Positions 1,123 through 62,942 of a stretch of 64,000 nucleotides of DNA are shown in pieces. The translations under genes were made by a program, and so were the position numbers. This stretch comes from an uncultured Bdellovibrionales bacterium (lineage in GTDB: Bacteria > Patescibacteriota > Minisyncoccia > Moranbacterales > UBA11712), in the NCBI GenBank assembly GCA_964519445.1, contig CAZFIH010000001.1:2144-66143 (forward strand), written 5' to 3'. The notes under the pieces were generated by a model. The model ran no database searches, had not been told where the DNA came from, and saw only the letters and a list, made by a program, of their open reading frames with translations. Position 1 is the stretch's first letter; the number at the start of each line of letters is the position of its first letter.

Positions 1123-1395
1123 TCATTTTATCTTGTCTTCGTACTCGGGGAAGTATTGGGAGATGACCGAAAGATCAAATTCCCGGAGTATTGATTCTTT
1201 CGGCTCTCGTTCCAATAAAAAATCAAAAGATTTTCTCACAAGCTCTTCCGGAGTAGCCGCGCCAGCGGCTAGTTTTTTGTAATAATCCTCACTCACACTG
1301 ACTCGGTGGGTGGTGCTGCTGCCATCTTTGTCTTCAACCACGACTTCCAAAACGGCGCTTGGCAATGATTCTATTTGCTTAACAAGTATTTTCAT
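1123..1395 (-). CDS. hypothetical protein (90 aa)
   Basis: Intact ORF in the co-directional minus-strand run. An ACATTCT/AGAATGT palindrome ends 14 nt upstream of its ATG. Confidence 0.45.
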   Translation of the reverse strand: MKILVKQIESLPSAVLEVVVEDKDGSSTTHRVSVSEDYYKKLAAGAATPEELVRKSFDFLLEREPKESILREFDLSVISQYFPEYEDKIK

Positions 1396-1612
1396 ATTTA
1401 CAGTTTACAACATTCTCACATTCTTCCTCCAGAGGCGGGCAGGCAAGAATGTTGGAATGTCGTGTCGTGTCGTGTAGTGGAGTTGGGGTTTTTGGTATTA
1501 TGAAATGCACTGGGTTTGTGATGCTTCCCCGCCGCGGGCGGGAATTACGGGATTATTTTTCTCGCTCCCCACTAAAGTTCAACCTCACTTAGCAAAGCTT
1601 TATGATTTCTCA
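1396..1612. repeat. family-1 mosaic repeat, copy A (ACATTCTCACATTCT...AGAATGT module, GTCGTGT module, CCCCGCCGCGGGCGGG hairpin plus ATTATTTT, CTAAG hairpin)
   Basis: Modules shared with copies at 2490-2635, 56741-56905 and 57660-57806. Confidence 0.65.
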
Positions 1613-6086: not shown

Positions 6087-6203
6087 TCTCTGCGAACTAC
6101 GAAATTATACGAACATACGAAAATAAATTTCTCTTGTCGCGCGATTTACAAAATATTTGAACAACAATTTTTTATTTTAGTACATTTTCGTAGTTCGCAG
6201 AGA
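6087..6203. repeat. TACGAA-arm palindromic element between ftsE and ftsX (18-bp perfect inverted repeat TCTCTGCGAACTACGAAA, 81-nt spacer)
   Basis: Arms at 6087-6104 and 6186-6203. The loop contains AATATTTGAACA. Confidence 0.7.
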
Positions 6204-8962: not shown

Positions 8963-11716
8963 TTATTTAATTCTTATCGCACTTAGACTCTCAACTATTA
9001 AATCTGCTGCTTTTTCATTGACCCACCGAGGAGATTTTTTCTTTATCTGGTGAACAATGACATCTATATCTGCATTGATAATTTTACTCAATACTGCAAC
9101 TGATTTTTGTTTTAGTTTCGGTTTCAAGCTTGAATCTTCGATTTTTCGCAAAAGCTTGAAAAGATTTTCCAGTGTTTTTAGCTTTTTACGGAAATACTTA
9201 TAGGCAACTGTTTTCTTAATTAAGCCTAATTTATGATAATGATCAAAGTTTTTCCGGATGGCGCTGATATCTGTCCCTACTTGGAAATTCGCCTCTTTTT
9301 CAGCTGAATTCCCAGCTTCATCAGTAGCGGAAATTTTCAGTGTATATTCTCCCAAGCGCTCAAGCGAGAGGTCTATACTCTTCTCCATCCAGTCGAGTGC
9401 TTCTCCGTTTTTCTTAACTTGCCATGATTCAATACTAATTCTTGATTCGAAATCTTCGATTTTATAATCAATCATCAAAGTTCTATCATTAGTATAGCTT
9501 GTTTCCTCGGGGGAGAAAATAGTTATCATTGGCGGTTCCGTGTCCGGATTGTACAATACTTGATCATCGGCAACTTCAATTTCAAACTCTTGCACTACGC
9601 CTGCTTGGGACTCACCCGCTATTTCAGTCGAAGATTCGATCGCATTTCCTAGATCATTGGGATTTTCAGTGATTTTAGTTGTTTCTATTGTATAACTCCC
9701 TCCTTCTCCCGTTCCTTGCACCAGAATCTTATATTTTCCATTCTCCGAATTTGGGATGGTGACAAATTCATTTTCAGTATCAGATCCAGTGTAATAAGCT
9801 CCTTCGATTTCATTCACTTCTTCCCCCGTTTCAAAATTCTTCCCTATTTTCCTGCCGCTTGGAGATTCGATTTGAATGTCTGCGGGCGAAAAAACACCGA
9901 ATGTCAAAATGTCGACAACTCTGTCGAAAATATTCGCGGCGGAACAATCCTGATTCCCTGACAATTCTGTGAACACATGACATTGAGCCGCCGTGGGAAG
10001 ATCGCCGTGAGATGAATTCAGGATTATTTCTTTGTTAGACGCAATTCCTTTTGCGCTGGAGAACGGCACTGTTTCATCCCCGGGTCCGTACTCGATTCCC
10101 TGATCAGTACTGTCATCATAATAATTTTCCGGCATCCCGTGTTTCCATATGCCGTCGGTATCACTTTCAGCAACTCTTAATTTTTCTATCGTGTTGTTTC
10201 TTTCCGTGTCTGAAATGATATTCGTAAAATCAATGTTGTTTAGACGATTTAACCTACCTGAACCATTCAAAAAATCCAGGAAAGTATTTCGCGGATAATC
10301 ATTCGGGTAATTTCTCATCTCCCCGCTTGATGATTCCCTTAAATAGTCGTAATCGGGAAGGAGTTCTTTTACGGAAATCACCCTTCCCTGGATATAATCC
10401 TTCAGATTATCAAATCCCGAATGTTTTGCTTCGATTTTAAACATGCTTTCAACAATATTATCATCAAATGCTGTTCCTATTTCGCCAGCCTCCCATGTTA
10501 AATAACTTTTCGGTGCTCCTTTGTGCGGAGTTCCTAATGTAATGAGTTGATCAATGTCATTTTCATAGCTTTCTCCTTCTATATAATAGCGTGCAATAAG
10601 TCCTCCCATCGAATGAGCAACTATATCAACTTTTGGACGGCCTGTTTGATTTTTCACTTCACTGATTTTTTCTTTCAGTTCTTGCGCGGTTAGAATATTG
10701 CTGTCACGCCATTCGTATGGAAACTCAAAAAGCTTTTCTTCTTTTTCATAACCATTCTTTTCTAGAGATGCAATTAAATTATCATAAGTGTGGAGTATGG
10801 GATCGATTTTCAGTTCTCCAACTCCTCCTGGATATTTTGTAGCTGACCCCATAATCCCCGGAATGATGATCACCGGATCGGGATTCTCAATTGGGTCTTC
10901 TTCGAGCCATGGATCAAAAGTGAGCTGGCCGGTAACCGGATTTCCTTCGCCGTCTGGATTTTCATCTTCGTTGTAAGGTCCTGATTCGTCTCCCCACCAG
11001 TTATACCTCGCGTCCAATGCCGGTATGTCCGGATCAGAAGAATTTGTCGCGATTACTCCCGTATCGTTTTCCAATATTACGTTGTTCACCGCAACTGAAG
11101 TTTCTCCGGATTCAAATGTTATTCCTCTGGTATTATCACTGATTATGTTCGAATCAATCACAAATTTTGCATTTCCCAAATATTTAAGAGCAGTGCCGTT
11201 TTTCTTGAATTCACAATTTTTAACCATAATCTCACGATTTTGTTGGTTCGAAGCCTGGATTTGAACAGCCAAATAACTATAAAAAAATTGCGCGTGTTCA
11301 ATTCTGATTTTGACATCATCTGATGGAGAAATGCTAATATAATGCCAATCCCCGATTGAAGGCTTATGCGCACCTCCGTCACCGTTTGTGTCTCCGCCGT
11401 GCTCGTCATCCCTCATAGAAGTGAAAACCACGGGTTTTTCCTTCGTACCTTTAACGATAAAATCGTCTTGAATGATCAGTCTTTCCAGGCTTCCTCTGTT
11501 GAACTTTATCAGGGTTCCCTCCTCGATTGTTAAAGGTGCGGCAATAATATTCCAGCCGGATAGAATGTATGGACTGTTTTCTTTTGTCCAAGTTGTGGGC
11601 TCTGTTATTGTTCTCGCCGCAAGCCGTGTCGGCCCTTCGGCGTTCGTCAGGTCAGTAAATAGTGAGAACGCAAGAAAAAAAGTGACGAGATAGAAAATCG
11701 GTTTTACTGTTTTCAT
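8963..11716 (-). CDS. large secreted protein: right-handed beta-helix region plus lipase-like alpha/beta hydrolase domain
   Basis: Signal peptide [20 protein letters not shown], pectate-lyase/NosD-like repeat segments, and a lipase nucleophile elbow [14 protein letters not shown]. Confidence 0.55.
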
Positions 11717-26246: not shown

Positions 26247-26362
26247 TTTACGAAATACGAATTTTGCGAAATACGAAAAAGTTAAAATAGCAGAACATTT
26301 TTTCACTAATCAACCAATCAATATTTGAACATCTGTTTCGTATTTCGTTGTTCGTAAATACG
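26247..26362. repeat. TACGAA-arm palindromic element upstream of the DUF4012 gene
   Basis: Arms TTACGAAATACGAATTTTGCGAAATACGAAA / TTTCGTATTTCGTTGTTCGTAAA. The loop contains AATATTTGAACA. Confidence 0.65.
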
Positions 26363-27484
26363 CTATGCGCAGTTTTTATAAATATCCAGCGTCTCCCTCG
26401 CCATTTTTTCCCAACTGTATTTTTTTACCTGCTTGTGACCTCCTGAAATGAGTTTTTGCCGGACCTCTCCGTTGGTTGCGACTTTTTCAATGGTCTCTGC
26501 CATTTCCGTAAGCGCTTGGGGGTCGAAATAGCAGGCGGCGTCGCCGAGAATTTCCGGAAGACAAGAAGCATTCGAACTGGCGACGGGAAGATTCCAGCTC
26601 ATGGCTTCAAGCGGAGGAAGGCCGAAGCCTTCGTAGAGCGACGGAAAAATATAGAGCAGGGCTTCCTTATAGAGGGTCCCCAGCTCGCCGTCCGGAACAA
26701 AATCAGTGAAAATAACTTGCCTTATTCGATTGTCTTTCACGAATTTTTTCAGTCGCCTGTAGAAATAGTCTTCTTTCCCCACCAGAACCAGATGAAGGTG
26801 AGGATGCTTCCGCACGAATTCCCTAAACACCAAAACAAGCCTCTCCAGGTTTTTATGAGGATAGGCGTTTCCCACGTACAAAATGTACGGCTTTATTATA
26901 CCATATTTTTTGTGAATCTGTTGAGGGCTGGCTCGTAGAGGCTCAAGAGTCCTGTCGACCGCTTCCAGAGTAACGGCTATTTTCCTCGAAGAAACGCGAA
27001 AGTGCTTCAAAATATCTTTTTTTGTGAATCGGGAAACAGCGATGATTTTTTCTGATTTTTTGACGGCGTTTCGTATGACGATCCGGTGGGCTATTTTTTT
27101 GAGAAAATAATAGAATGGCGACAAAGTCGTGGCGCGCTGAGTGGGAAAATGAAACAGGATCAGATCGTGAATAGTGACAACGAATTTTCCTTTCCAGAAA
27201 ACGGGAACGTTGAAATGCGGAAAATGGACCAGGTCGAGATTGTATTTTTTGAGTATTCGCGGAAAAAACACCTGTTCGCGGACTCCATACCAGGGAATAT
27301 TGGCCAACACCTTCGAGAAATTCTTGTTGGCCGGCTGATATTCATCCCAGTTTTCTTTTCGGAGAAAAATGAAAAATTTGTCTTCTGAAGACACTTTTTC
27401 CAGGTTCTCTATCAGTTTTTGGGTATAGCGGCCAAGTCCTTTTCCGAGAGATCCGTAAAAACGGGCGTCGATTCCAATTCTCAT
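26363..27484 (-). CDS. glycosyltransferase family 4 (GT-B, Glycos_transf_1)
   Basis: EGFGLPPLEAM...PV motif. Paralog of 27581..28714. Confidence 0.8.
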   Translation of the reverse strand: MRIGIDARFYGSLGKGLGRYTQKLIENLEKVSSEDKFFIFLRKENWDEYQPANKNFSKVLANIPWYGVREQVFFPRILKKYNLDLVHFPHFNVPVFWKGKFVVTIHDLILFHFPTQRATTLSPFYYFLKKIAHRIVIRNAVKKSEKIIAVSRFTKKDILKHFRVSSRKIAVTLEAVDRTLEPLRASPQQIHKKYGIIKPYILYVGNAYPHKNLERLVLVFREFVRKHPHLHLVLVGKEDYFYRRLKKFVKDNRIRQVIFTDFVPDGELGTLYKEALLYIFPSLYEGFGLPPLEAMSWNLPVASSNASCLPEILGDAACYFDPQALTEMAETIEKVATNGEVRQKLISGGHKQVKKYSWEKMARETLDIYKNCA

Positions 27485-27580
27485 ATTGACTCGCGCCTGC
27501 CTGCCGGCAGGCAGGAATTGTGAGTGGATTAAAACGAATGGGAGCGAATGATTCGTTCCAATTCGTACGCAATTCGTTCT
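27485..27580. repeat. duplicated upstream element R1 (GCCTGCCGGCAGGC palindrome plus TTCGT repeats) before GT4 gene 26363..27484
   Basis: About 80% identical to 28715-28812. Confidence 0.6.
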
Positions 27581-28714
27581 TCAATTTGTGAGTATTTTTA
27601 ATGTTTCATTGGCGCATTTCCTCCAGCTGAATTTTCGGGCTTGTTCCAGTCCTCTTTGACGGAGCGTTGTTTGGAGCTTTTCGTCTCCGAGTATAGACTT
27701 CATAGCTTCGCGTAACTGCTCGGGACGATTTGGGTCAATTGCTATGGCCGATTTTCCGGCAACTTGCGGAATCGAGGAATTATGAGAGGTGATTACCGGC
27801 GTTCCGCAGGCCATCGCCTCGAGGACCGGCAGGCCAAATCCCTCAAAATGGGAGGGATAGACAAAAAGGGAGGCCAAATTGTATAAGAAAGGCTTGTCGT
27901 CTTTGGCGACGTACCCAATGGAAAAAATGCCGTTTTTTTCCCGATTGAAAATATCCGTATATTGCCTGCTGATGTTTCCGGCAAAAACCAGTTTGCACCT
28001 TCCGAACTGCGCGTTGACTTTTTGAAAATCCTTGAAAGCCTCGATGATTGAAACTATATTTTTTCGCGGCTCGATATTGCCAAGATACAATATGTATTTG
28101 TATGGGAGTCCGTATTTCTTCTGGATCTCGAGGAGTTTTGGATCATTTCGATCAATAATTCTATATTCTTCTCCGACACCGTGCCGAACAACCCGCACTT
28201 TTTCCGGCGAAATGCCGTATATATTTTCCAAATCAGTTTTTGTTGATTTGGAAACCGCGATAACGGAATCAGAATTTCGGGCGATTTTTCGGGGATTCAC
28301 AAACCATGAATGCCAGAGCATGGTTTTGTGCCGGAAGAATTCCGGAAAATACTCAAAAGAAAGATCGTGAAAAGTGGTGACGAATTTGCAATTCCGGCTG
28401 ACGGTTAAAAAATTTATATTGGGTGCGAAAAAAACGTCGACTCCGCCGATCAGCTTGTCCAGTTTCGGCCAATTCAGGTACCAAAGAAAAAGATTCAGCA
28501 GCTTGTTGGGAAATCGAAATCTGGCCAGCTTGACATTGGAATATTCATCGATAAAAGAAAAATTCTCGTTTTGATTTCGAAAGGCATTGGAGAAAATAAT
28601 ATAGTCGTTTTTTCTGTCCGCTTCCAGCAAACAACGAATGATCTCCAGCGTGTACTCGCCTACTCCGGAAATATTTTCTTCCTCCAGGCTTCTCAAGTCG
28701 ATGCCAATCCTCAT
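27581..28714 (-). CDS. glycosyltransferase family 4
   Basis: EGFGLPVLEAMACGTPVITS motif. Confidence 0.8.
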   Translation of the reverse strand: MRIGIDLRSLEEENISGVGEYTLEIIRCLLEADRKNDYIIFSNAFRNQNENFSFIDEYSNVKLARFRFPNKLLNLFLWYLNWPKLDKLIGGVDVFFAPNINFLTVSRNCKFVTTFHDLSFEYFPEFFRHKTMLWHSWFVNPRKIARNSDSVIAVSKSTKTDLENIYGISPEKVRVVRHGVGEEYRIIDRNDPKLLEIQKKYGLPYKYILYLGNIEPRKNIVSIIEAFKDFQKVNAQFGRCKLVFAGNISRQYTDIFNREKNGIFSIGYVAKDDKPFLYNLASLFVYPSHFEGFGLPVLEAMACGTPVITSHNSSIPQVAGKSAIAIDPNRPEQLREAMKSILGDEKLQTTLRQRGLEQARKFSWRKCANETLKILTN

Positions 28715-28812
28715 AAAAACTCGCGCCTGCCGGCAGGCAGGCAGGAATTAGGAGTGAATTAGAAACGTGTGAAAACGAACTTTTCGTTCCGATTCGCGTG
28801 GAATTCGTTCTC
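28715..28812. repeat. duplicated upstream element R2 before GT4 gene 27581..28714
   Basis: The CCTGCCGGCAGG palindrome ends about 10 nt before the ATG, with AATTCGTTC repeats beyond it. Confidence 0.6.
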
Positions 28813-33099: not shown

Positions 33100-33194
33100 G
33101 AAATAAACGAAAGTACGAAACAGATTTCAAGATATTGATTGATTCATAAAGGGAAAAAGTTCCTGATATTTCAACGCTTTCGTATTTCGTAATG
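33100..33194. repeat. TACGAA-arm palindromic element between the dedA-like gene and the sugar transferase gene
   Basis: Arms ACGAAAGTACGAAAC / GCTTTCGTATTTCGTAA. The loop contains GATATTTCAACG. Confidence 0.6.
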
Positions 33195-54407: not shown

Positions 54408-54803
54408 TCACCAGTTCAGGAAAGTTATCGTGAGCTGGAGTACTGTCGCGAACGCTATCCACAGAAGATAAGGGATGTTTGCATACGCGACCCAGCGCAT
54501 GCGCGGCCAAGCTGACGCCATAGCCCAAACAAGAGTCGCGAGAACGAGGATAACATCCACCGCCGCCAGCAGATTATTCCGGAGACCGAACTGGATCGGC
54601 GAGAAAGCGAAATTAAAAACGAGATTCAGCGCGAAAGGCAAAGCGACCAGCGAAGGCAGCTTCTTCCGGTACGCTTTCCAAAAAACAGCAAGGAAAGTGA
54701 CGGCAATAATCGCATAAAGCACCGTCCAAACAGGGCCGAACACCCAGGCCGGAGGAGCCCAAAAAGGCTTTGCGAGAGTTTGATACCAGTCAAAGGCTTC
54801 CAT
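54408..54803 (-). CDS. TspO/MBR family tryptophan-rich sensory protein
   Basis: WYQTLAKPFWAPPAWVFGPVWTVLY motif with five TM helices. A paralog sits at 62535..62942. Confidence 0.8.
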   Translation of the reverse strand: MEAFDWYQTLAKPFWAPPAWVFGPVWTVLYAIIAVTFLAVFWKAYRKKLPSLVALPFALNLVFNFAFSPIQFGLRNNLLAAVDVILVLATLVWAMASAWPRMRWVAYANIPYLLWIAFATVLQLTITFLNW

Positions 54804-56258: not shown

Positions 56259-56287
56259 ATAGAAAACCGGATCCGTATGCGGATCCG
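56259..56287 (-). terminator. intrinsic terminator (CCGGATCCG TAT CGGATCCGG)
   Basis: 9-bp palindrome followed, on the minus strand, by TTTTCTATTT. Confidence 0.45.
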
Positions 56288-56302
56288 GCAGCTTGTCGAA
56301 GC

Positions 56303-56611
56303 TTAGTGCGAGTGTAGGTTGACGTTGCTGATTGCCCATTCGGCATCTCCCTCCGGATCAAAAATAACGAGATCATGGTCTGGTTTGGGTTGTCGGATCC
56401 TCCCATCCCAAAGCACAAATTTCATTCGTTCTGCAGCGGGGTCATAAAGCCTGACGCAACATACCATGCAATCGTTGCCGAAAAATGCATAGATTTTCGT
56501 CACGTCGTGGTACACCGTCTCGTATCCAATACCTTTTAGCATATCAAGGACTTCTCTTACGGTTTTACCTCTTAGATCGAGCGGCTCATCCGGAATGATT
56601 AATGCGGCCAT
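56303..56611 (-). CDS. hypothetical protein (102 aa), higher GC
   Basis: ORF only. Confidence 0.4.
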   Translation of the reverse strand: MAALIIPDEPLDLRGKTVREVLDMLKGIGYETVYHDVTKIYAFFGNDCMVCCVRLYDPAAERMKFVLWDGRIRQPKPDHDLVIFDPEGDAEWAISNVNLHSH

Positions 56612-56740
56612 GGTCCATACCTCCTGGTATTCATTTTTTATAGCGTATCAGTCTGTTTTGTTTAGGTCAATCCTTTTCGATTCTATTCTAATTAGTGTAG
56701 TGGGTTGGAATGGATAATGATTGGAATATTTTCTAACGTA

Positions 56741-56905
56741 GAGTGGCACGTACCACTTCCCCGCCGCGGGTAGGGATAGCAGAATTTTTTCACAGAATGT
56801 CATACTTACATTCTCAAGTATGTAAGGATGTCGTGTTGTGTGCTGGGTTTGTGATACTCCCCCGCCGCGGGCGGGGAATACGGAATTATTTTTTCCTAAA
56901 GTTCT
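56741..56905. repeat. family-1 mosaic repeat, copy C (two GC-hairpin modules, one degenerate)
   Basis: CACGTACC; CCCCGCCGCGGGTAGGG; AGAATGT...ACATTCT; GTCGTGTTGTGTGCTGGGTTTGTGATACT; CCCCCGCCGCGGGCGGGGAATACGGAATTATTTTTT. Confidence 0.65.
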
Positions 56906-56925
56906 ATTTTTGGAGCAACTAGTTA

Positions 56926-57630
56926 TTATTTCTTTGTAACTCTGACAAAACCGACGTATTTCATTTCATCCGGCAGATCAAGCCGTTTGTTGCTGGGAGA
57001 ACGAGGATATCCAATTTCCGATTCAACCACATTTTTTTCTTCAAGTTGCTTGACTGTAGTCCAAAAATAGTCGCTAAATTCTTGTTGAACATCATCATTT
57101 TCATTGGTCAAAATATCTTTTGATCCCGGAGATGAAACAGGATAAACAAGCAATTGACCTCCCGGTTTCAAAACGCGGACAGCTTCGAGAATATTTTTTT
57201 TCAAACTCACTTTGTTTTCTGTGTGGTGATAGGCTGAATAGACGGATGTTATTAGGTCAAAACTGCCGTCTTTAAAAGGTAATTCTTCGCCGATAGCGGC
57301 CACCGCTGCCGGAAGATCCTTTTCCTTCCCGGTAAGAAATCGCTTTATTCTTTGCCACACCTTTTCCTGAAAGAATTTTTGCCTTCCCCTTTCCAAAAGA
57401 TACATAGGGTCAAGGGCCGTGACATTAACGCCGTAGTTTTTTGCATCTTTGGCAAAATAAGCAGAACCGGCCCCAACATCCAAAATTTTCTTATCCTTAA
57501 GATCATCGACTTTTAGATCGAAATAAGCAAGATAGAGGACAAGATCCCGATTTATTTCATTTGTTTCAAATTTTTCCGCCAACCTTTTCAAATTAGTTGT
57601 TTCGGAAGAATTTTCTTGTTCAATCGACAT
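56926..57630 (-). CDS. class I SAM-dependent methyltransferase
   Basis: Motif I ILDVGAGSAYFA and post-I VLKPGGQLLV. Confidence 0.8.
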   Translation of the reverse strand: MSIEQENSSETTNLKRLAEKFETNEINRDLVLYLAYFDLKVDDLKDKKILDVGAGSAYFAKDAKNYGVNVTALDPMYLLERGRQKFFQEKVWQRIKRFLTGKEKDLPAAVAAIGEELPFKDGSFDLITSVYSAYHHTENKVSLKKNILEAVRVLKPGGQLLVYPVSSPGSKDILTNENDDVQQEFSDYFWTTVKQLEEKNVVESEIGYPRSPSNKRLDLPDEMKYVGFVRVTKK

Positions 57631-57659
57631 GATTCAAATATATAAGACAATAGTTTTTT

Positions 57660-57806
57660 GTCACGTACCTTACCTGCCCGCCTTTGGCTGCGGTACGTAT
57701 CCGGTTACTTATAATTTGCCCGCCGCGGGCGGGAATCACGGAATTATTTTGCAAATAACATTCTCACATTCTCCCCCCAGAGGCGGGCAGGCAAGAATGC
57801 TGGAGG
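57660..57806. repeat. family-1 mosaic repeat, copy D
   Basis: ACGTACC...GGTACGT hairpin, GCCCGCCGCGGGCGGGAATCACGGAATTATTTTG, then a 45-nt near-identical copy of the 1409-1456 module. Confidence 0.65.
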
Positions 57807-57812
57807 GTTATT

Positions 57813-58571
57813 TTATATCTTATCAATCCACTTCAATAATATTTCCTTTATCTCATCCAAATGTTCCTTTTCTCTAAAGGTGTGCTCGGCGCCTTTTATT
57901 ATATGCAATTCCTTTTTTCCCGGCAGAGCGTCAAATAATATTTTCTGGTGATCGGGTAGAGTCCGTGTGTCTTTATCGCCGACAATCATCAGTACCGGCA
58001 TTGTGAGTTTATCGACATTTTCTAAAAGATCGTACTTCAGCCGATCCTCCATATGTGACCACGGTAGTTTTTTTACAATTCCTGGTTTTGATCTGCTCTC
58101 GGAAATTCGCCAACCGTCCTTCTTCCATTTTTTCGTATCTTCCGTATCGGCTGATAATTTTCCTGAAACAACCGTTGAAATCGGCGCAAGCGCTTTTACT
58201 TTTTCCGGATATTTTTCTGCATAGAGCGCCGTGCAAATTCCTCCCAAGCTGTGCCCTGCCAGCACGAACGGTTCCTGATACAACTTCTCGGTTTTCGCCC
58301 ACTCAATAACGTCTTCGAGATCTTCATAATAATTCGTGACTGTGGCTTTTTCAATATCACCCTCGCTTTCACTGAAGGAGTTCGTCGCATCAAAGCGGAT
58401 CACAGAGAAGCCTTTTTTTCTGAATGCATTCGCGAACGTTTCAATGTGCGGCTGTTCCTTGAATCCGCCTAACCCGTGCATAACGAAAGCCAATCCTTTT
58501 TGCTCGGGTATTTCCTCAATTAGCACCGCCATCTTCTGTTCCTTGCGGTTTTTGATAAATAATTTTTCCAT
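57813..58571 (-). CDS. alpha/beta hydrolase (esterase/lipase-like)
   Basis: LAGHSLGG nucleophile elbow plus Asp/His in the C-terminal part. Confidence 0.75.
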   Translation of the reverse strand: MEKLFIKNRKEQKMAVLIEEIPEQKGLAFVMHGLGGFKEQPHIETFANAFRKKGFSVIRFDATNSFSESEGDIEKATVTNYYEDLEDVIEWAKTEKLYQEPFVLAGHSLGGICTALYAEKYPEKVKALAPISTVVSGKLSADTEDTKKWKKDGWRISESRSKPGIVKKLPWSHMEDRLKYDLLENVDKLTMPVLMIVGDKDTRTLPDHQKILFDALPGKKELHIIKGAEHTFREKEHLDEIKEILLKWIDKI

Positions 58572-58615
58572 TTTGTCTTCTGTTATAATTACACCTACTT
58601 TTCCCTTCTCTCAAT

Positions 58616-58652
58616 TACGACATTCTCACATTCTGCAGAATATTAGAATGTT
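58616..58652. repeat. ACATTCTCACATTCTGCAGAATATTAGAATGT palindrome (family-1 H module) between arsR and the hydrolase gene
   Basis: Inner 7-2-7 palindrome ACATTCT GC AGAATAT with outer ACATTCT/AGAATGT arms. Confidence 0.65.
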
Positions 58653-58930
58653 TTTATGAATTTCAAAAATCTTGATCCGTAAGGCGAGAGGCTGTGCTCT
58701 ACCTGGCGGCCGCGGTATTTCTTGTTGACCAAGCCGGCCTGCACCAGTTTTCTGGTATGTTCCGAAATGGTTTTGATATTGCAATCCAATGCCGCCGCAA
58801 TCCCGTCAACGGTAATCCCTGTGTTTTTTGAAACAAGGCCCAATATTTCAATTCTCCGGTGATTGGCCACGCCCTTGAAATGCCTTTCTAGTTGCTTTGG
58901 AGTTTTGCTTCTTGCTTTAACTATTTGCAT
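58643..58930 (-). CDS. ArsR/SmtB-family HTH transcriptional regulator
   Basis: Winged-helix region HRRIEILGLV...DCNIKTISEHTRKLVQAGLV, 95 aa. Confidence 0.7.
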   Translation of the reverse strand: MQIVKARSKTPKQLERHFKGVANHRRIEILGLVSKNTGITVDGIAAALDCNIKTISEHTRKLVQAGLVNKKYRGRQVEHSLSPYGSRFLKFIKTF

Positions 58931-58975
58931 TTATTAGCAGTGCTACAATAGTATCAAATACGGAAGAATATTCCA

Positions 58976-58996
58976 ACATTCTGCAGAATATAGGAA
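58976..58996. repeat. ACATTCTGCAGAATAT palindrome upstream of arsR
   Basis: The same 16-mer as at 58623-58638, about 46 nt upstream of the arsR ATG. Confidence 0.65.
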
Positions 58997-59230
58997 TATA
59001 TTCTATTTGCTTCGCCAATCTCTAATTTGTATTCCTCCTCTTATTCTTGCGACTTTCACTTTCTGTCTTTCTCGCCAGCCGAGCTCGCGGAGCATTTCAA
59101 TTGGAAGGGTGATGCCCAGAGAACTCGCGCCGATTCGGGATATTTTTCGGATGTTTCGATTTTGAATTTTCCGCCTCGCCATAAAATAGGTATTTAAATA
59201 TGTATTTTAATAAGTATTTCTATTTTTATC

Positions 59231-60231
59231 CTATCCCACCAAGAGATTCGTGACAATCTTTATCATCTTATCCTTTTCTTTTGGGTCGCTGATGGCGATG
59301 AGAAGCGCCAGGGCTGTGAGAGCGTTGTCGTTGATTTTCCGCTCCCCGCTTTTTTTTAGGAGATAAAATTATTCCGGTCTAAAAAATAAACAAACAAAAA
59401 CGAACCGATTCGCTTGTTGCCGTCAACGAACGGATGGTCCTTGATCACCAAATACAAAAGATGGGCCGCTTTTTCTTCGAGGGAAGAATAAAGCTCCTTT
59501 TTTCCAAACGTTTGGCAGAGATTTCCTACGATGGCTTCAAGTTTATTTCCAGATTCTTGTCCGAACAAATCACTCGCTTCCTTTTTGGCGGTGAGCTTTT
59601 TCTTTATTTCGGCGATAACTGATTTGGCGTCTTTGTATTTCAGAATAAATTTCCCCTTGGCCTTTTTTGAGAGATGTAATTTTTCCTTATCATACTTTTC
59701 AAGAAGACTAAGTGTCTTTGAATAATTCTCAAGCAGATTCAATATTTCTTTCTCCTGCCCTTTGAGGAGCTTATGACTTGATTTTTCTCGGAGAAATAAG
59801 ATTGTTTCCCGCAAGTCTTCGAATTTATTCTTTTCCTGCAACAGTCGCTTTTCGTTAATCGTGTAGCCTTTGATCAAATGCTGTTTCAGTGTTTTCGTCG
59901 CCCAAATGCGGAATTGGGTAGCTCTTTTGGAGTTCACCCTATAGCCAACAGAAATAATCATATCTAAGTTATACATGTTCATCTTTCTTATTTTCCCATC
60001 AGCTGCAACCTGTTCCAAAATGGAACAGGTTGATTTTCTATCTAATTCGCCTGTTTTATAAATATTATTTATATGCTTAACAATAGCGGGACGATTCACA
60101 CTAAAAACTTTTGCGATGGAATGAGCGTCTAACCAAACAGAACCCTTTTCAAGTTTTACTTGAATTTCTGGTCCGCTTGGGGAGCGATAAATCACAATCT
60201 CTCCTTTTTTTATTTCCTTCTTTCGTGCCAT
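59231..60231 (-). pseudogene. RhuM-like N-terminal domain plus Fic/Doc-family domain, interrupted by a stop and -1 frame change at an A8 tract
   Basis: Frame A reads HPFVDGNKRIGSFLFVYFLDRNNFIS then TAA at 59356-59358. The -1 frame continues ...KKSGERKINDNALTALALLIAISDPKEKDKMIKIVTNLLVG, which resembles the Doc C-terminal helices. Confidence 0.55.
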
Positions 60232-60260
60232 ATATTTCCTTTATCCTACTCCAAAATCAC

Positions 60261-60758
60261 CTATTTTTCAAGAAAAAAGGCCGGTTTTGAAACATGAGGA
60301 TCGCCTTCGCTTTGAAATATGTGGATAATATCGCATTGCTTCCAGACATTTTTCAGGTCGCCCGACAACTGGAAATTTTCGCAGCCATATGTATTGTTGT
60401 GAGGCGTCGCGACGAGGAAAAGGGCGCCTATTTTCTTGGTAAATTTGTTTTCGGAAAGATATTTGGCAAGAAAAATTCCGCCCAGTGAATGGCCGATAAG
60501 AATTACGTTATTTCGAAAGAAGGGCCGCATTCTTTCGAACCAAATTTTCCATTCTTTATATTTCGCGTTCTGCTTGTTCGGCATTTGAGGCATAAGCACT
60601 TCATAATTGTTTCCTAAAGCAGCAGCTAACGTGCTTTTCCAGTCTTTTTTACGAAAAAAATATGCTGAATCTACTTTTCTGTTTTTCAGAAAATGCAAAA
60701 AGTCATCGTATTTATTGAACGACCATCCGCCATGTATGACAACTACTTGCTTTTTCAT
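60261..60758 (-). CDS. alpha/beta hydrolase, RBBP9/YdeN-like serine hydrolase
   Basis: VVVIHGGWS and ILIGHSLGG motifs. Confidence 0.6.
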   Translation of the reverse strand: MKKQVVVIHGGWSFNKYDDFLHFLKNRKVDSAYFFRKKDWKSTLAAALGNNYEVLMPQMPNKQNAKYKEWKIWFERMRPFFRNNVILIGHSLGGIFLAKYLSENKFTKKIGALFLVATPHNNTYGCENFQLSGDLKNVWKQCDIIHIFQSEGDPHVSKPAFFLEK

Positions 60759-60769
60759 TGGTAAATTCT

Positions 60770-61783
60770 TTATTTCAATAAATCATCCAATAATCTCAAA
60801 AGCAGATTGAGTCTCGCTTTCTTTTCTTTTTTTGGTTTTCGCGAAGCGGTGACGTCGGCTAGAATGGCGCCTAGGCATCTTTCCGTAAGACTGGCTTTGA
60901 GCAAGCTTTCCGGATTATTCATTTTGAGCTGTCTCATTATTGGAAGCACGTCCTTTGTCCATGAGCCAATTCCCCTTTTCCATTTTCGATAGTCCGTTTT
61001 CCAGTTGGCTCCGAGCATCCAATCCGACCAGATCATGAAACCGATTTCATAACCTTCGGGATAGAAGCAGGTATGAGCGAAATCGGTAAGGTAATAGACA
61101 TTCTTTTTCGGTGAAAAATATATTTCTTTGGCCTTGAAATGCCCGTGAGACCAGAGCATTTTTCGGGGTCGGAAAACTTTGCAAATGAGTTCTTGAGCTT
61201 GGAAATACAAAGGGAAAAATTTCTTGAGGTTGAGAGCTGGTTTTTCACCCCTGAGTTGCATCTCGATTTCCCTTTCGTTTGCCATTTCGAACCAGCGGTG
61301 AATCCTGGTAATGTGGAATTCATCGGCTGGCAGTTTCTCGGCAATGAGAAGAGGGCGGAAAGATTTTTTGGGAAAGTGTTTTTTGTACTCGAGATAAACC
61401 TCCAAAAATTCTTTTCTGCGGATTTTTTTCATAGGATTCGGGTAATCCGATTCGGACAAGAAATGTCCGTCTTTGGGAAGTTTTTCCATGATATACCAGC
61501 CGCGGGATGGTGAGATTTCTTTGTACTTGTATACTGCGGGACCAATAAGTTTTTTGCTTTTGTTGACCCGGTTGTAGTAAACCAGCGAGGAAGCCTCTTT
61601 GATTCTTCTCGGCTCGTCGTATATTTTGAGAACCACCGGTTTATTTCTGTAAACCCCGGAGTAAATTATATTTCTCAAATTGTCTGGTTGCCCCAGGTCC
61701 GAATGATATATTTTTCTCGGCGATTTTAGCCCCGTTTCTCCGATTACCTTCGCTGCCCATTTTTGCAGTAGAGTCTTTTCCAT
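60770..61783 (-). CDS. phosphotransferase (APH/choline-kinase-like protein kinase fold)
   Basis: HGHFKAKEIYF ... YLTDFAHT resembles the APH HGDxxxxN...IDxE motif (APH-type Brenner motif and DFG-like). Confidence 0.5.
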   Translation of the reverse strand: MEKTLLQKWAAKVIGETGLKSPRKIYHSDLGQPDNLRNIIYSGVYRNKPVVLKIYDEPRRIKEASSLVYYNRVNKSKKLIGPAVYKYKEISPSRGWYIMEKLPKDGHFLSESDYPNPMKKIRRKEFLEVYLEYKKHFPKKSFRPLLIAEKLPADEFHITRIHRWFEMANEREIEMQLRGEKPALNLKKFFPLYFQAQELICKVFRPRKMLWSHGHFKAKEIYFSPKKNVYYLTDFAHTCFYPEGYEIGFMIWSDWMLGANWKTDYRKWKRGIGSWTKDVLPIMRQLKMNNPESLLKASLTERCLGAILADVTASRKPKKEKKARLNLLLRLLDDLLK

Positions 61784-61820
61784 ATGTGAGTATACTAGCC
61801 CGAAATTCTTCTTTTTTCAA

Positions 61821-61852
61821 ATAAAAAAAGACCCCGGGTAGCACCTGGGGCC
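61821..61852 (-). terminator. intrinsic terminator (GACCCCGGG TAGCA CCTGGGGCC plus U7)
   Basis: GC stem. The minus strand follows with TTTTTTTATTTG. Confidence 0.6.
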
Positions 61853-61875
61853 TAAACAGGATAGATAAATGAATT

Positions 61876-62451
61876 TTATGCATAGGCTTGCTTTGCCGAA
61901 CCTCTGGCGAGCATTGCGGTGAGAAGTTTTTCCTCGCCTGCCTTAAATCGAGTGAGGGCAATCGTCGGCGGCTCCTGGAATGGAATTATTTTTCCCTCTT
62001 TCGCGGCGATCGCGAGCGCGGTCGCCCGATGATGACCCTCAATGAGAACAATTGATCCATCCGGCATGAGAACTCCAATAAATTCTGTGGGATCGGGGAA
62101 ATTTTCAAGGAGCCCCTCGACTTTTTCATTGTCTTTGAAAGATACGCGCTCGATAAGCGTTGAAAAAGCATGCCTCAGGCGCTCATGAGCCGGAAAATGA
62201 TTTTGCCAAGACCGGGTAGGGCCCACGCGAAATTGAGGAATTGCCTCAAGCGGATTGAGTATGATATAGCGACGCCATTCCCTATCCCGCGCTCCAATAT
62301 TTTCTGCCCACTCGGATCTCCATTCTGGCCATGAATTCCAGCCTTTATTCATGGCAACCTGTTGCCATTCTTTCATCGTGCCTTCCCGCTCTTGCCAAGC
62401 GCGAAAGACATCCTCCCAATTTGTTTCTTCCGTGAATTGTAATCCTTCCAT
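61876..62451 (-). CDS. ParB/sulfiredoxin-fold domain protein (hypothetical), higher GC
   Basis: LIEGHHRATALAIA resembles the ParB/Srx DGHHR box. Confidence 0.4.
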   Translation of the reverse strand: MEGLQFTEETNWEDVFRAWQEREGTMKEWQQVAMNKGWNSWPEWRSEWAENIGARDREWRRYIILNPLEAIPQFRVGPTRSWQNHFPAHERLRHAFSTLIERVSFKDNEKVEGLLENFPDPTEFIGVLMPDGSIVLIEGHHRATALAIAAKEGKIIPFQEPPTIALTRFKAGEEKLLTAMLARGSAKQAYA

Positions 62452-62534
62452 TTTTTATATCCCCCCAATGAGTGATTCTTTGACATTTTTTTCAAGTGAA
62501 TTTATCCTTCCAGATTTCATCCACTTCAAAAATA

Positions 62535-62942
62535 TTAGTTCCAATTCAAATAGGTTATCGTGAATTGAAGGCCGGTAGCGAAAATGACCCACAGGAGGTA
62601 TGGGATATTCGCAAGCGCGATCCAGCGGGCGTGCGGCCAAATCGCAACCATTGCCCAAATGAGGGTGCCGAGGACGAGGAGTATGTCAATCGCTGCCAAA
62701 AGATTGCTTTGAAGCCGGAATTGAATCGGAGAGAAGGCGAAATTAAAAATGAGATTCAGGATGAACGGAAGAAGAACCAGAAAGGACACGCGGCCTTTCC
62801 AAAATAAATACACCGCGTATCCGAACGAAACGGCAATGATTATGTACAAAGCGGTCCAAACCGGACCGAAAATCCACGCCGGTGGCGCCCAGGAGGGTTT
62901 TATAAGTTCTTGATACCAATTGAAAGTGTCCATATTGTTCAT
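62535..62942 (-). CDS. TspO/MBR family protein (second copy)
   Basis: WYQELIKPSWAPPAWIFGPVWTALY motif. Roughly 60% identical to 54408..54803. Confidence 0.8.
   Translation of the reverse strand: MNNMDTFNWYQELIKPSWAPPAWIFGPVWTALYIIIAVSFGYAVYLFWKGRVSFLVLLPFILNLIFNFAFSPIQFRLQSNLLAAIDILLVLGTLIWAMVAIWPHARWIALANIPYLLWVIFATGLQFTITYLNWN

What the first reader, a model, noticed from the sequence alone, without database searches (positions are those of the whole stretch)
56303..62942. Co-directional array of accessory-type genes interleaved with family-1 repeats
From 56.3 to 62.9 kb every gene is on the minus strand and the set is of a kind often found in mobile cassettes. It comprises a hypothetical protein, a SAM methyltransferase, an alpha/beta hydrolase, ArsR, a disrupted RhuM-Fic/Doc gene, a second hydrolase, an APH-like kinase, a ParB/Srx-like protein, and a TspO paralog of a gene 8 kb away. 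The first four are each separated by a family-1 repeat, and several have higher GC than the window average. The layout looks like a gene-cassette array or a recently assembled accessory island. No integrase or transposase is visible inside the window.
Basis: inference. Interest (0 to 1): 0.5.

Follow-up and report, generated by a model that had tools for sequence, protein, structure and literature searches.

The report
Variable gene neighbourhood with operator-like repeats
This stretch of a Patescibacteria (CPR) chromosome is not an integron-style cassette array: it is a conserved five-gene backbone with a few lineage-specific genes between, and the repeat between the genes is a 32-bp palindrome that brackets a highly conserved small regulator gene in every relative examined, so it is most likely that regulator's binding site.

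Summary
The genes are real, but the cassette-array reading fails. Sixty-four of 76 greedily picked ORFs in the window are on the minus strand, so co-directionality is not special. Composition is ordinary: gene GC is 0.376-0.500 against 0.446±0.041. No attC core pair lies in any spacer. No integrase or transposase domain was found in the 61 window ORFs scanned with Pfam.

Five of the ten listed genes keep their relative order in related metagenomic loci. The other five are absent from those neighbourhoods: two hydrolases, the methyltransferase, the 102-aa and the 191-aa proteins.

The only repeat present in all three spacers is a 15-2-15 palindrome, ACATTCYnAYATTCT-GC-AGAATRTnRGAATGT. In four other independent lineages it flanks the wHTH gene, once upstream and once over the stop codon, in unrelated contexts. 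It is therefore most likely an operator. This window has extra, partly degenerate copies. A second, genome-specific GC-rich hairpin repeat is REP/MITE-like and unexplained.

Verdict: a variable chromosomal neighbourhood on an ancestral backbone, of low to moderate interest.

The parts
56266..56289 (-). Canonical intrinsic-terminator-like hairpin plus T-run directly after the 102-aa gene. It is the only such site on the minus strand between the wHTH gene and 56.2 kb.
56303..56611 (-). 102-aa hypothetical protein. It has no family hit and is absent from the related loci, so it counts as a variable gene.
56742..56792 (+). Degenerate copy of GC-hairpin module A (61% identity to the reference copy).
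56800..56831 (.). P3, a degenerate copy of the 15-2-15 palindrome. Twelve of 15 arm pairs are kept, and the centre is CA instead of GC.
56843..56893 (+). GC-hairpin module A (CCCCGCC-GCG-GGCGGGG followed by ...ATTATTTTT). It is 90% identical to the copy at 1510-1560.
56926..57630 (-). Class I SAM-dependent methyltransferase of 234 aa. It is rare (two homologues above 50% identity) and counts as a variable gene.
57671..57797 (.). Composite GC-rich unit. An inverted 15-19-nt repeat (CCTGCCCGCCTTTGG at 57673-57687, and its complement at 57777-57791) encloses module A (57701-57751) and one arm of P4.
57758..57803 (.). P4, a palindrome copy. The promoter-proximal arm is intact, a 21-nt GC-rich segment replaces the central GC, and the distal arm is degenerate. 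It is 94% identical to P5 at 1409-1456.
57813..58571 (-). Alpha/beta hydrolase of 252 aa. It is absent from the related loci, so it counts as a variable gene.
58620..58651 (.). P1, a canonical 15-2-15 palindrome. It overlaps the last two codons and the stop codon of the wHTH gene, and lies 48 nt upstream of the hydrolase start codon.
58643..58930 (-). ArsR-like winged-helix regulator of 95 aa. More than 2500 homologues exist, and the best 120 listed are 67-85% identical across Patescibacteria. It is a backbone gene.
58968..58999 (.). P2, a canonical palindrome 37 nt upstream of the wHTH start codon. By my reading it overlaps a candidate -35 box (TTGGAA, 17-nt spacer, TACTAT). It lies 3 nt after the MazE-like stop codon.
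   Evidence: the promoter reading is from the sequence
59003..59182 (-). MazE/AbrB (SpoVT)-like protein of 59 aa. It is 55-63% identical to copies in L001, L009 and L013, and is a backbone gene.
59182..59209 (.). A second palindrome family (TAAAATAGGTATTTAAATATGTATTTTA) directly upstream of the MazE-like start codon. It is conserved in L009 at 9687-9710.
59232..60231 (-). RhuM-Fic/Doc gene (PADLOC candidate PDC-S23), frameshifted at a T8 run near 59350-59357. It is a backbone gene: 58% identity to the intact 339-aa copy in L013, and the junction with MazE is 76% identical at DNA level to L001.
60261..60758 (-). Small serine hydrolase of 165 aa. It is absent from the related loci, so it counts as a variable gene.
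60770..61783 (-). APH/choline-kinase-fold small-molecule kinase of 337 aa. About 88 Patescibacteria-type homologues are 34-74% identical. It is a backbone gene.
61876..62451 (-). 191-aa protein with a conserved EGHHR motif, possibly of the ParB/Srx/DndB fold. It is absent from the related loci, so it counts as a variable gene.
62535..62942 (-). TspO2, 80-81% identical to the TspO upstream of the kinase in L001 and L005. It is a backbone gene.
54408..54803 (-). TspO1, a paralog 64% identical to TspO2. A TspO gene also lies 4-6.5 kb from the wHTH gene in L013 and L014.
1409..1560 (.). Distant second cluster of the same modules. P5 (1410-1460) is a palindrome with both arms intact and the 21-nt GC insert, 14 nt upstream of a 90-aa ORF. 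Module A is at 1510-1560, and a further A copy lies at 2546-2626.

Best explanation
The region is an ordinary chromosomal neighbourhood of a Patescibacteria (CPR) genome with two layers.

(1) An ancestral backbone: TspO, an APH-fold kinase, RhuM-Fic (decaying here), a MazE/AbrB-like gene and an ArsR-like wHTH. Relatives keep these in the same relative order.

(2) Lineage-specific genes between the backbone genes: the 191-aa protein, the small hydrolase, the larger hydrolase, the methyltransferase and the 102-aa protein. Relatives hold different genes, often defence genes, at those positions.

The repeat common to the three spacers is a 15-2-15 palindrome, ACATTCYnAYATTCT-GC-AGAATRTnRGAATGT. 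It travels with the wHTH gene in every lineage examined. One copy lies 26-47 nt upstream of the start codon and overlaps a -35-like box. The other overlaps the stop codon and lies 30-120 nt upstream of whatever gene follows.

Inferred mechanism: the wHTH dimer binds these palindromes. It would repress its own promoter and control the gene or genes downstream. In this genome, extra and partly degenerate copies lie upstream of the methyltransferase and the 102-aa gene. The only canonical terminator follows the 102-aa gene. The four genes therefore probably form one regulator-controlled transcription domain.

The GC-rich hairpin modules are genome-specific REP/MITE-like spacer elements. They are not recombination sites.

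Shown: the gene identities, the synteny, the conservation and placement of the palindrome, the absence of attC and integrase signals, and the normal composition. Inferred: protein binding, regulation, and insertion as the origin of the variable genes.
For: TAXON. Kinase and wHTH homologues carry Patescibacteria names.

BACKBONE SYNTENY.
- L001 has TspO (81%), three genes, kinase (70%), then RhuM-N and MazE (63%).
- L005 has TspO (80%), CYTH, kinase (70%).
- L013 has RhuM-Fic (58%), two genes, MazE-like (55%), wHTH (76%), then TspO further on.
- The RhuM-Fic/MazE junction is 76% identical at DNA level to L001.

VARIABLE GENES. They are absent from all 17 loci, and the methyltransferase is rare.

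PALINDROME.
- Thirteen copies from five lineages were aligned.
- The core ATTCTGCAGAAT is intact in 10 of the 13, and two more differ by one base.
- The copies flank the wHTH gene next to YchF/DapB (L009), DNA_alkylation/tRNA_bind (L013), lipase (L014) and SecA/DivIC (L016).
- In the window the motif is confined to five sites, four of them within 2.2 kb of the wHTH gene.
- Eleven 15-2-15 palindromes occur in the window, against about one in shuffles.

REGULATOR. The protein passes the Pfam ArsR HTH_5 cut-off. Established knowledge, not checked in a paper here: ArsR/SmtB repressors bind imperfect 12-2-12 inverted repeats over their own promoters (Busenlehner, Pennella and Giedroc 2003).

AGAINST AN INTEGRON. 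No attC core pair, no integrase or transposase domain, and normal GC and codon usage.

OTHER POINTS.
- The only canonical terminator follows the 102-aa gene.
- A different GC-hairpin family separates glycosyltransferase genes elsewhere in the window. Hairpin repeats between co-directional genes are thus a trait of this genome.
Against: - Binding is not demonstrated.
- The extra copies are imperfect. P3 has 3 mismatches in the 12-nt core, P4 has a degenerate distal arm, and P4 and P5 have half-sites split by 21 nt. They may not function as operators.
- P4 lies about 95 nt upstream of the best promoter match for the methyltransferase.
- Every copy also lies just 3' of a stop codon.
- Non-Watson-Crick positions are mostly G.T in the gene orientation: 14 against 4 C.A. 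An RNA-level role is therefore not excluded.
- 'Variable' rests on +/-10 kb around anchors in relatives that are only 55-85% identical. No close relative was available, so insertion here cannot be told apart from loss elsewhere.
- About 2.7 kb of the source contig lies outside the window and was not seen.
Confidence: 0.6

Rival explanations
1. The palindromes act at the RNA level. They would be 14-bp AU-rich hairpins at the 3' ends of the MazE-like, wHTH and hydrolase messages, serving as U-tract-less terminators, processing sites or 3'-end stabilisers. They would not be protein-binding operators.
For: - Copies lie 0-10 nt after, or over, stop codons. This holds for window P1, P2 and P4, the L009 copy after MazE, and the third L014 copy after the deaminase gene.
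- Non-Watson-Crick pairs in the gene orientation are 14 G.T against 4 C.A.
- Predicted hairpins reach -11 to -12 kcal/mol, z about -3.
Against: - The sequence is conserved, not only the pairing. The 12-nt core is intact in 10 of 13 copies across lineages whose proteins are 74-85% identical.
- No U-tract follows, although canonical terminators do exist in this genome.
- The upstream copy overlaps a -35-like box at a conserved distance from the wHTH start codon.
- The element co-occurs strictly with a DNA-binding protein gene.
Confidence: 0.2
2. The spacers are built from small non-autonomous mobile elements (REP, MITE or GC-cluster-like). These have spread within this genome, in two cases into the dyad centre of the palindrome. 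Recombination between copies assembled the variable genes here.
For: - Modules A and B-plus-insert recur at 90-94% identity 55 kb apart, in a different order.
- The exact 15-mer CCTGCCCGCCTYTGG occurs three times, twice as an inverted pair around module A.
- The module A pattern is absent from the GTDB representative genomes. In JGI metagenomes its single hit is an unrelated terminator hairpin.
- The spacers that hold these modules are among the longest in the window.
Against: - No transposase or RAYT domain was found in the window.
- No target-site duplications or clear termini could be defined.
- All five A copies share one orientation relative to the genes, which fits a selected cis role better than random insertion.
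- Only 64 kb of the genome could be examined.
Confidence: 0.15
3. It is an integron-like cassette array. The palindromes at the 3' end of each gene would be attC-like recombination sites, with a recombinase encoded just outside the window.
For: - The genes are co-directional and palindromic elements sit at or just after stop codons.
- The outer arms are conserved while the centre varies in length (2 or 21 nt).
- The genes between the palindromes differ among relatives.
- About 2.7 kb of the contig was not seen.
Against: - No R''/R' core pair lies in any spacer.
- No integrase domain was found in the window ORFs scanned.
- Relatives with the same palindromes show no tyrosine recombinase within +/-10 kb.
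- In relatives there are only two or three palindromes, always bracketing the same conserved regulator rather than an array.
- The upstream end of the proposed array (TspO, kinase) is conserved backbone.
- Sigma-70-like promoter matches lie in the spacers.
- Composition is normal.
Confidence: 0.04

Closest known systems
ArsR/SmtB-family autoregulated repressors with 12-2-12 inverted-repeat operators (for example SmtB, CzrA)
   Same: A small winged-helix protein that passes the Pfam HTH_5 cut-off. An imperfect inverted repeat with a 2-nt centre overlaps the regulator's own -35 region. A second site precedes the neighbouring gene.
   Different: - The arms are 15 nt and are built from tandem ACATTCT heptamers.
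- The protein lacks the alpha3 CXC and alpha5 His/Asp metal ligands.
- It scores below the NCBIfam metalloregulator cut-off (44.4 against 55).
- The second site overlaps the regulator's own stop codon.
- The downstream target gene differs in every lineage.
Chromosomal integron cassette arrays (intI, attI, attC)
   Same: Co-directional small genes of mixed function, a palindromic element at the 3' end of several genes, and gene content that varies between relatives.
   Different: - No attC R''/R' cores and no extended imperfect palindrome with extrahelical bases.
- No integrase found.
- Half of the genes are conserved backbone.
- The repeat is tied to one regulator gene in all relatives.
- Promoter-like sites lie in the spacers.
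REP/BIME and MITE-type extragenic palindromic repeats
   Same: Module A and the 21-nt GC-rich segment are short GC-rich hairpins. They are confined to spacers between co-directional genes, modular, genome-specific and recurrent at 90-94% identity.
   Different: - No RAYT or transposase was seen.
- No defined termini or target-site duplications.
- There are only five copies in 64 kb, clustered at two places.
- Two copies sit exactly at the dyad centre of another conserved palindrome.
Defence or variable-gene hot spots next to conserved anchor genes
   Same: Conserved anchors with different genes between them in each lineage. These include GmrSD, EcoRI methylase, DpnI, TIR and PIN in relatives, and a RhuM-Fic gene (PADLOC PDC-S23) here.
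   Different: - Most variable genes in this window are hydrolases, a methyltransferase and unknowns, not recognised defence systems.
- The one defence candidate is frameshifted and is itself part of the backbone.

Membership tests
Integron cassette array | attC site at the 3' end of each cassette, with R'' (RYYYAAC) and R' (GTTRRRY) cores 50-150 nt apart | tested here: not met
   A regex scan of both strands found one pair in 56-63 kb. It lies entirely inside the methyltransferase coding sequence, and none lies in a spacer. IntegronFinder's attC covariance model was not available.
Integron cassette array | intI tyrosine recombinase next to the first cassette | tested here: not met
   No Phage_integrase or other recombinase domain in the 61 window ORFs scanned. 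About 2.7 kb of the 66,660-nt source contig lies outside the window and could not be read.
Integron cassette array | Cassette content and order vary between close relatives while the platform is fixed | tested here: inconclusive
   Five genes are absent from related neighbourhoods. However, the relatives are distant (55-85% identity) and five interleaved genes are conserved.
ArsR/SmtB-type repressor with its operator | ArsR-type winged-helix DNA-binding domain | tested here: met
   Pfam HTH_5 scores 32.7 bits against a cut-off of 22. The best PDB match is the mycobacterial ArsR-family protein 2kko/3gw2, E 3.7e-4.
ArsR/SmtB-type repressor with its operator | Metal-sensing sites (alpha3 ELCVCD-type or alpha5 DxHx10HxxE), or a score at the metalloregulator subfamily level | tested here: not met
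   NCBIfam HTH_metalloreg scores 44.4 against a cut-off of 55. The sequence has a single Cys (LDCNIK), no CXC and no C-terminal His cluster.
ArsR/SmtB-type repressor with its operator | Imperfect inverted-repeat operator with a 2-nt centre overlapping the regulator's own promoter | tested here: met
   A 15-2-15 palindrome lies 26-47 nt upstream of the start codon in 5 of 5 lineages. The TTGGAA-N17/18 -10 arrangement is readable in the window, L009 and L016. Actual binding cannot be tested here.
Horizontally acquired genomic island | Compositional deviation (GC, codon usage) from the surrounding genome | tested here: not met
   Gene GC is 0.376-0.500 against 0.446±0.041. Codon-bias values are typical for the gene lengths.
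Horizontally acquired genomic island | Integrase, a tRNA target or flanking direct repeats | tested here: not met
   The tRNA genes lie only at 4.9 and 12 kb. No integrase was found. The only flanking similarity is the pair of TspO paralogs, 70% identical at DNA level over 240 nt.
Horizontally acquired genomic island | Presence or absence polymorphism among relatives | tested here: inconclusive
   This is met for five genes and not met for the five backbone genes. No close relative was available.
REP/MITE-type repeats (module A and the GC insert) | Multiple extragenic copies of a short palindromic unit | tested here: met
   Five A copies, three copies of the 15-mer, all in spacers.
REP/MITE-type repeats (module A and the GC insert) | A cognate RAYT or transposase, or terminal inverted repeats with target-site duplication | tested here: inconclusive
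   No transposase domain was found in the window. One inverted pair (57673/57791) encloses module A, but no target-site duplication could be defined. The rest of the genome was not available.
RhuM-Fic/Doc (PADLOC PDC-S23 candidate defence gene) | An intact protein with the RhuM N-terminal domain and a Fic/Doc HxFx(D/E)GN(G/K)R core | tested here: not met
   The domains and the HPFVDGNKR motif are present and PDC-S23 scores E 1.9e-102. However, the reading frame breaks 17 codons after the motif.

The most novel reading that the evidence does not exclude
The 15-2-15 palindrome would be more than an operator. It would be a preferred insertion or recombination site in Patescibacteria. Under this reading, genes are slotted in downstream of the wHTH gene at the palindrome and each event leaves another copy. 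A tiny GC-rich element also targets its dyad centre, as in P4 and P5. That would be an integrase-independent cassette-capture mechanism, or one that uses an unknown recombinase, tied to a regulator found across the phylum.
Probability: 0.07. Interest if true: 0.7.

Novelty: new member of a known kind. Interest (0 to 1): 0.3.

Why it matters
For the scan, a suspected integron or cassette array in a CPR genome becomes an ordinary variable neighbourhood.

The by-product may be of modest use. A 95-aa ArsR-like regulator is conserved at roughly 70-85% identity across Patescibacteria. In 5 of 5 lineages examined it carries the same 32-bp palindrome on both sides. These organisms have very few transcription factors, and four literature searches found no description of this pair.

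If the palindrome is the regulator's operator, it gives a directly testable regulon for an uncultivated phylum. The GC-rich segment at the dyad centre of two copies is a small unexplained oddity.

Tried and rejected
- Exact-sequence look-ups of window proteins (TspO, methyltransferase, kinase) found no record. The contig beyond 64000 could therefore not be read.
- A scan of the GTDB representative genomes with the kinase found no relative. The module A pattern had no hit there.
- The module A pattern in JGI metagenomes gave one hit (L007). It is just a GC-rich terminator after an unrelated gene, so it was rejected as a family member.
- Rfam found nothing in the spacers beyond one chance miRNA-model hit at E 1.6.
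- I guessed that the 102-aa gene after the wHTH gene in L009 was the orthologue of the window's 102-aa gene. That would have made the hydrolase and methyltransferase clean insertions. tblastn shows no similarity, so the idea was rejected.
- The single-sequence AF2 model of the 191-aa protein was unusable, with pLDDT 39.
- Profile searches of the kinase and 191-aa families against PDB sequences found nothing.
- DNA comparison with the phage and plasmid collections gave only short RhuM matches.
- The palindrome pattern is absent from IMG/VR viral contigs.
- I considered module A as an intrinsic terminator for the minus-strand genes and rejected it. In the gene orientation the A-rich run precedes the hairpin and no U-tract follows, whereas canonical terminators do exist in this genome.
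- Literature searches for integrons or a conserved regulator and operator in Patescibacteria found nothing relevant.

Full report
WHAT THE WINDOW IS. The 337-aa protein at 60770-61783 is identical to an NCBI protein on a 66,660-nt contig. Its homologues, and those of the wHTH protein, carry Patescibacteria names such as Kerfeldbacteria, Moranbacteria and Parcubacteria. The window holds ordinary chromosomal genes: a class-I release factor (PCRF/RF-1 domains), LepA, MurJ, RecJ, iPGM, FtsE/X, RNase P RNA and three tRNAs. Sixty-four of 76 greedily picked ORFs are on the minus strand, and nearly all curated genes are. Co-directionality at 56.3-62.9 kb is therefore a property of the whole window and not of an array.

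THE GENES. Pfam confirms the methyltransferase, both hydrolases, the ArsR-type wHTH, RhuM+Fic and TspO. The RhuM-Fic gene is broken by a single-base frameshift at a T8 run. The Fic tail (…LLKKSGERKINDNALTALALLIAISDPKEKDKMIKIVTNLLVG*) continues in another frame. The gene matches the PADLOC candidate PDC-S23 at E 1.9e-102. The 'APH-like kinase' has no Pfam hit. With a 25-sequence alignment, AF2 gives pLDDT 94, and Foldseek finds NahK, APH(4)-Ia and choline and ethanolamine kinases.

The 191-aa 'ParB/Srx-like' protein has no hit in Pfam, NCBIfam, PADLOC, PHROGs or PDB. It belongs to a family of about 290 representative clusters with a conserved EGHHR motif, and one of 41 members hits DndB. That label is plausible but weak. 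The two TspO copies are 64% identical.

COMPOSITION. Genes in the window average GC 0.446, sd 0.041. The ten genes of the finding run from 0.376 to 0.500. None is 2 sd away. The methyltransferase, RhuM-Fic and the small hydrolase are below the mean, not above it. Codon-bias values are typical for the gene lengths. There is no compositional sign of recent acquisition.

INTEGRON TESTS. A scan for R''(RYYYAAC)…R'(GTTRRRY) pairs 40-150 nt apart finds one in 56-63 kb, inside the methyltransferase coding sequence, and none in a spacer. No integrase or transposase domain appears in the 61 window ORFs scanned. Sigma-70-like promoter matches lie in the spacers upstream of the methyltransferase, the larger hydrolase and the MazE-like gene. 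By eye a TTGGAA-N17-TACTAT arrangement precedes the wHTH gene. About 2.7 kb of the source contig lies outside the window and could not be fetched.

THE REPEATS ARE TWO DIFFERENT THINGS. Module A is a roughly 35-50-nt unit, CTTCCCCGCCGCGGGCGGGrATyACGGrATTATTTT. Its copies are at 1510, 2546, 56742 (degenerate), 56843 and 57701, all in one orientation. Module B is an inverted repeat with arms ACATTCTCACATTCT and AGAATGTTGGAATGT. In three copies the arms are separated by 2 nt: P1 58620-58651, P2 58968-58999 and the degenerate P3 56800-56831. In two copies a 21-nt GC-rich segment separates them: P4 57758-57803 and P5 1410-1460, which are 94% identical to each other.

MODULE A IS SPECIFIC TO THIS GENOME. 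Its pattern has no exact match in 185,579 GTDB representative genomes. It has one unrelated terminator match in the JGI metagenome contigs. A different GC-hairpin family (27467-27534 and 28697-28764) separates glycosyltransferase genes elsewhere in the window. Hairpin repeats between co-directional genes are thus a habit of this genome.

COMPARATIVE EVIDENCE FOR A BACKBONE. Homologues of the kinase and the wHTH protein were traced to metagenomic contigs.
- L001-L003 (kinase 70%) read TspO (81% to TspO2), 289 aa, CYTH, PNPOx, kinase, RhuM-N-like, MazE-like (63%), HAD, GmrSD, EcoRI methylase, GmrSD-HNH and PIN.
- L005 reads TspO (80%), CYTH, kinase, then DpnI.
- L013 reads RhuM-Fic (58%, intact, 339 aa), 154 aa, DNA_alkylation, MazE-like (55%), wHTH (76%), tRNA_bind, TIR, and TspO further on.
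- The DNA from the RhuM-Fic tail to the MazE start codon is 76% identical to L001, where the RhuM gene is also shortened.

TspO2, kinase, RhuM-Fic, MazE-like and wHTH are therefore inherited in this order. The 191-aa gene, both hydrolases, the methyltransferase and the 102-aa gene have no counterpart in any of the 17 loci. The methyltransferase has only two homologues above 50% identity in 5.8 billion proteins. In contrast, the kinase has about 88 clear homologues. The wHTH has more than 2500, and the best 120 listed are 67-85% identical.

WHAT THE PALINDROME IS. In L009, L013, L014 (named Moranbacteria by its source) and L016 the same 32-bp palindrome flanks the wHTH gene. One copy ends 26-47 nt before the start codon. 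The other begins in the last two codons (ACA TTC TAA or TGA, reading T F stop). The gene neighbourhoods are unrelated: YchF/DapB, DNA_alkylation/tRNA_bind, lipase, and SecA/DivIC.

Thirteen aligned copies give the consensus ACATTCtaATATTCT-GC-AGAATGTtaGAATgT. The core ATTCTGCAGAAT is intact in 10 of them, and two more differ by one base. L009 and L014 each have a third copy just after another gene's stop codon. In L009 that gene is a second MazE-like gene. The pattern is absent from IMG/VR viral contigs. Of the 120 best wHTH homologues, 59 end in F (42 in TF) and 28 end in S. These are C-termini that the CATTCT arm could encode, an indirect hint that the stop-overlapping copy is widespread.

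A small winged-helix repressor with an imperfect inverted repeat of 2-nt centre over its own -35 box is the classic ArsR/SmtB arrangement. That statement rests on established knowledge of 12-2-12 operators and was not checked in a paper here. This protein lacks the metal-ligand motifs and falls below the NCBIfam metalloregulator cut-off. I therefore read the palindrome as the operator of this regulator. This is an inference and binding is untested.

AN RNA-HAIRPIN ROLE IS THE MAIN RIVAL. Every copy lies at or just after a stop codon. Non-Watson-Crick positions are mostly G.T in the gene orientation, 14 against 4. The hairpins reach -11 to -12 kcal/mol. Against this, sequence rather than pairing alone is conserved, and no U-tract follows.

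THE LOCAL PICTURE. P2 precedes the wHTH gene and P1 precedes the larger hydrolase by 48 nt. P4 together with module A precedes the methyltransferase. Module A, P3 and the degenerate A copy precede the 102-aa gene. The only canonical terminator on the minus strand in this stretch follows the 102-aa gene, at 56266-56289. The simplest reading is one regulator-headed transcription domain. Two or three lineage-specific genes have come to lie within it, with relic or modified operator copies and REP-like hairpins in its unusually long spacers. Those spacers are 314 and 182 nt against a window median of 64.

WHAT REMAINS UNEXPLAINED. The 21-nt GC-rich segment sits exactly at the dyad centre of P4 and P5. 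Its 15-mer core recurs as an inverted pair around module A, which gives a long-range helix with z of -2.7 to -3.2. The same modules occur in a different order 55 kb away, at 1.4-2.6 kb. A MITE or REP-like element is possible. No transposase was found in the window and only 64 kb of the genome could be seen.

VERDICT. 'Accessory island' holds only in the weak sense of a variable neighbourhood on an ancestral backbone. The regulator-palindrome pair, conserved in all five lineages examined, is the most useful thing to come out of the check.

Noticed in passing
window 58620-58651 and 58968-58999; L009 9860/10210/12061; L013 9329/9643; L014 6688/9922/10292; L016 9943/10259: A 95-aa ArsR-like wHTH gene has more than 2500 homologue clusters in Patescibacteria, and the best 120 listed are 67-85% identical. 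In 5 of 5 lineages it is bracketed by the same 32-bp palindrome, in unrelated gene contexts. Four literature searches found no description of this pair.
   Followed up: partly
window 59182-59209; L009 9687-9710: A second conserved palindrome or repeat (AAATAGGTATTTAAATACCTATTT) lies directly upstream of the MazE/AbrB-like gene. In L009 it lies upstream of an apparent MazE remnant. AATACTTA-type repeats precede other MazE homologues. It is probably the operator of that small DNA-binding protein.
   Followed up: partly
window 57758-57803 and 1410-1460; also 57673-57687: A 21-nt GC-rich segment (TGCCTGCCCGCCTCTGGrGGr in the gene orientation) replaces the central GC of two palindrome copies. Its 15-mer core also occurs inverted about 90 nt away, enclosing module A. 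The origin is unknown.
   Followed up: partly
window 27467-27534 and 28697-28764: Another GC-hairpin repeat family (GCCTGCCTGCCGGCAGGCAGG core, 84% identity over 68 nt) separates consecutive GT4 glycosyltransferase genes.
   Followed up: partly
window 26264-26345 and 33111-33192: An 82-nt inverted repeat (77% complementary) has arms 6.8 kb apart. It brackets the glycosyltransferase and sugar-transferase cluster.
   Followed up: no
window 6087-6122 and 6168-6203: A 36-nt inverted repeat (83% complementary) lies in the spacer between the FtsX-like and ABC-ATPase (FtsE-like) genes.
   Followed up: no
window 59350-59357: The RhuM-Fic frameshift lies in a run of eight T. It could be a genuine pseudogene or a homopolymer assembly error. 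In L001 the orthologous gene is also shortened, to 149 aa.
   Followed up: partly
L001 13441-19069; L005 4488-5258; L013 10205-11128: Relatives carry defence-type genes at the same backbone: GmrSD, EcoRI methylase, a GmrSD_N+HNH-domain protein, PIN, DpnI and TIR. This suggests a variable or defence hot spot in the lineage.
   Followed up: no
window 54408-54803 and 62535-62942; L013 16131-16526; L014 5685-6080: A TspO gene lies within 4-6.5 kb of the wHTH gene in L013 and L014. The window has one on each side. The two window copies are 64% identical, and TspO2 is the closer match to the copy next to the kinase in relatives.
   Followed up: partly
window 1123-1395: A 90-aa ORF with no family hit starts 14 nt after palindrome P5. 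If the palindrome is an operator, this gene would be a distant regulon member.
   Followed up: no
window 8963-11716; L014 7236-9866: The 917-aa LCAT/lipase-domain protein of the window is 41% identical to the 876-aa lipase directly upstream of the wHTH gene in L014.
   Followed up: no
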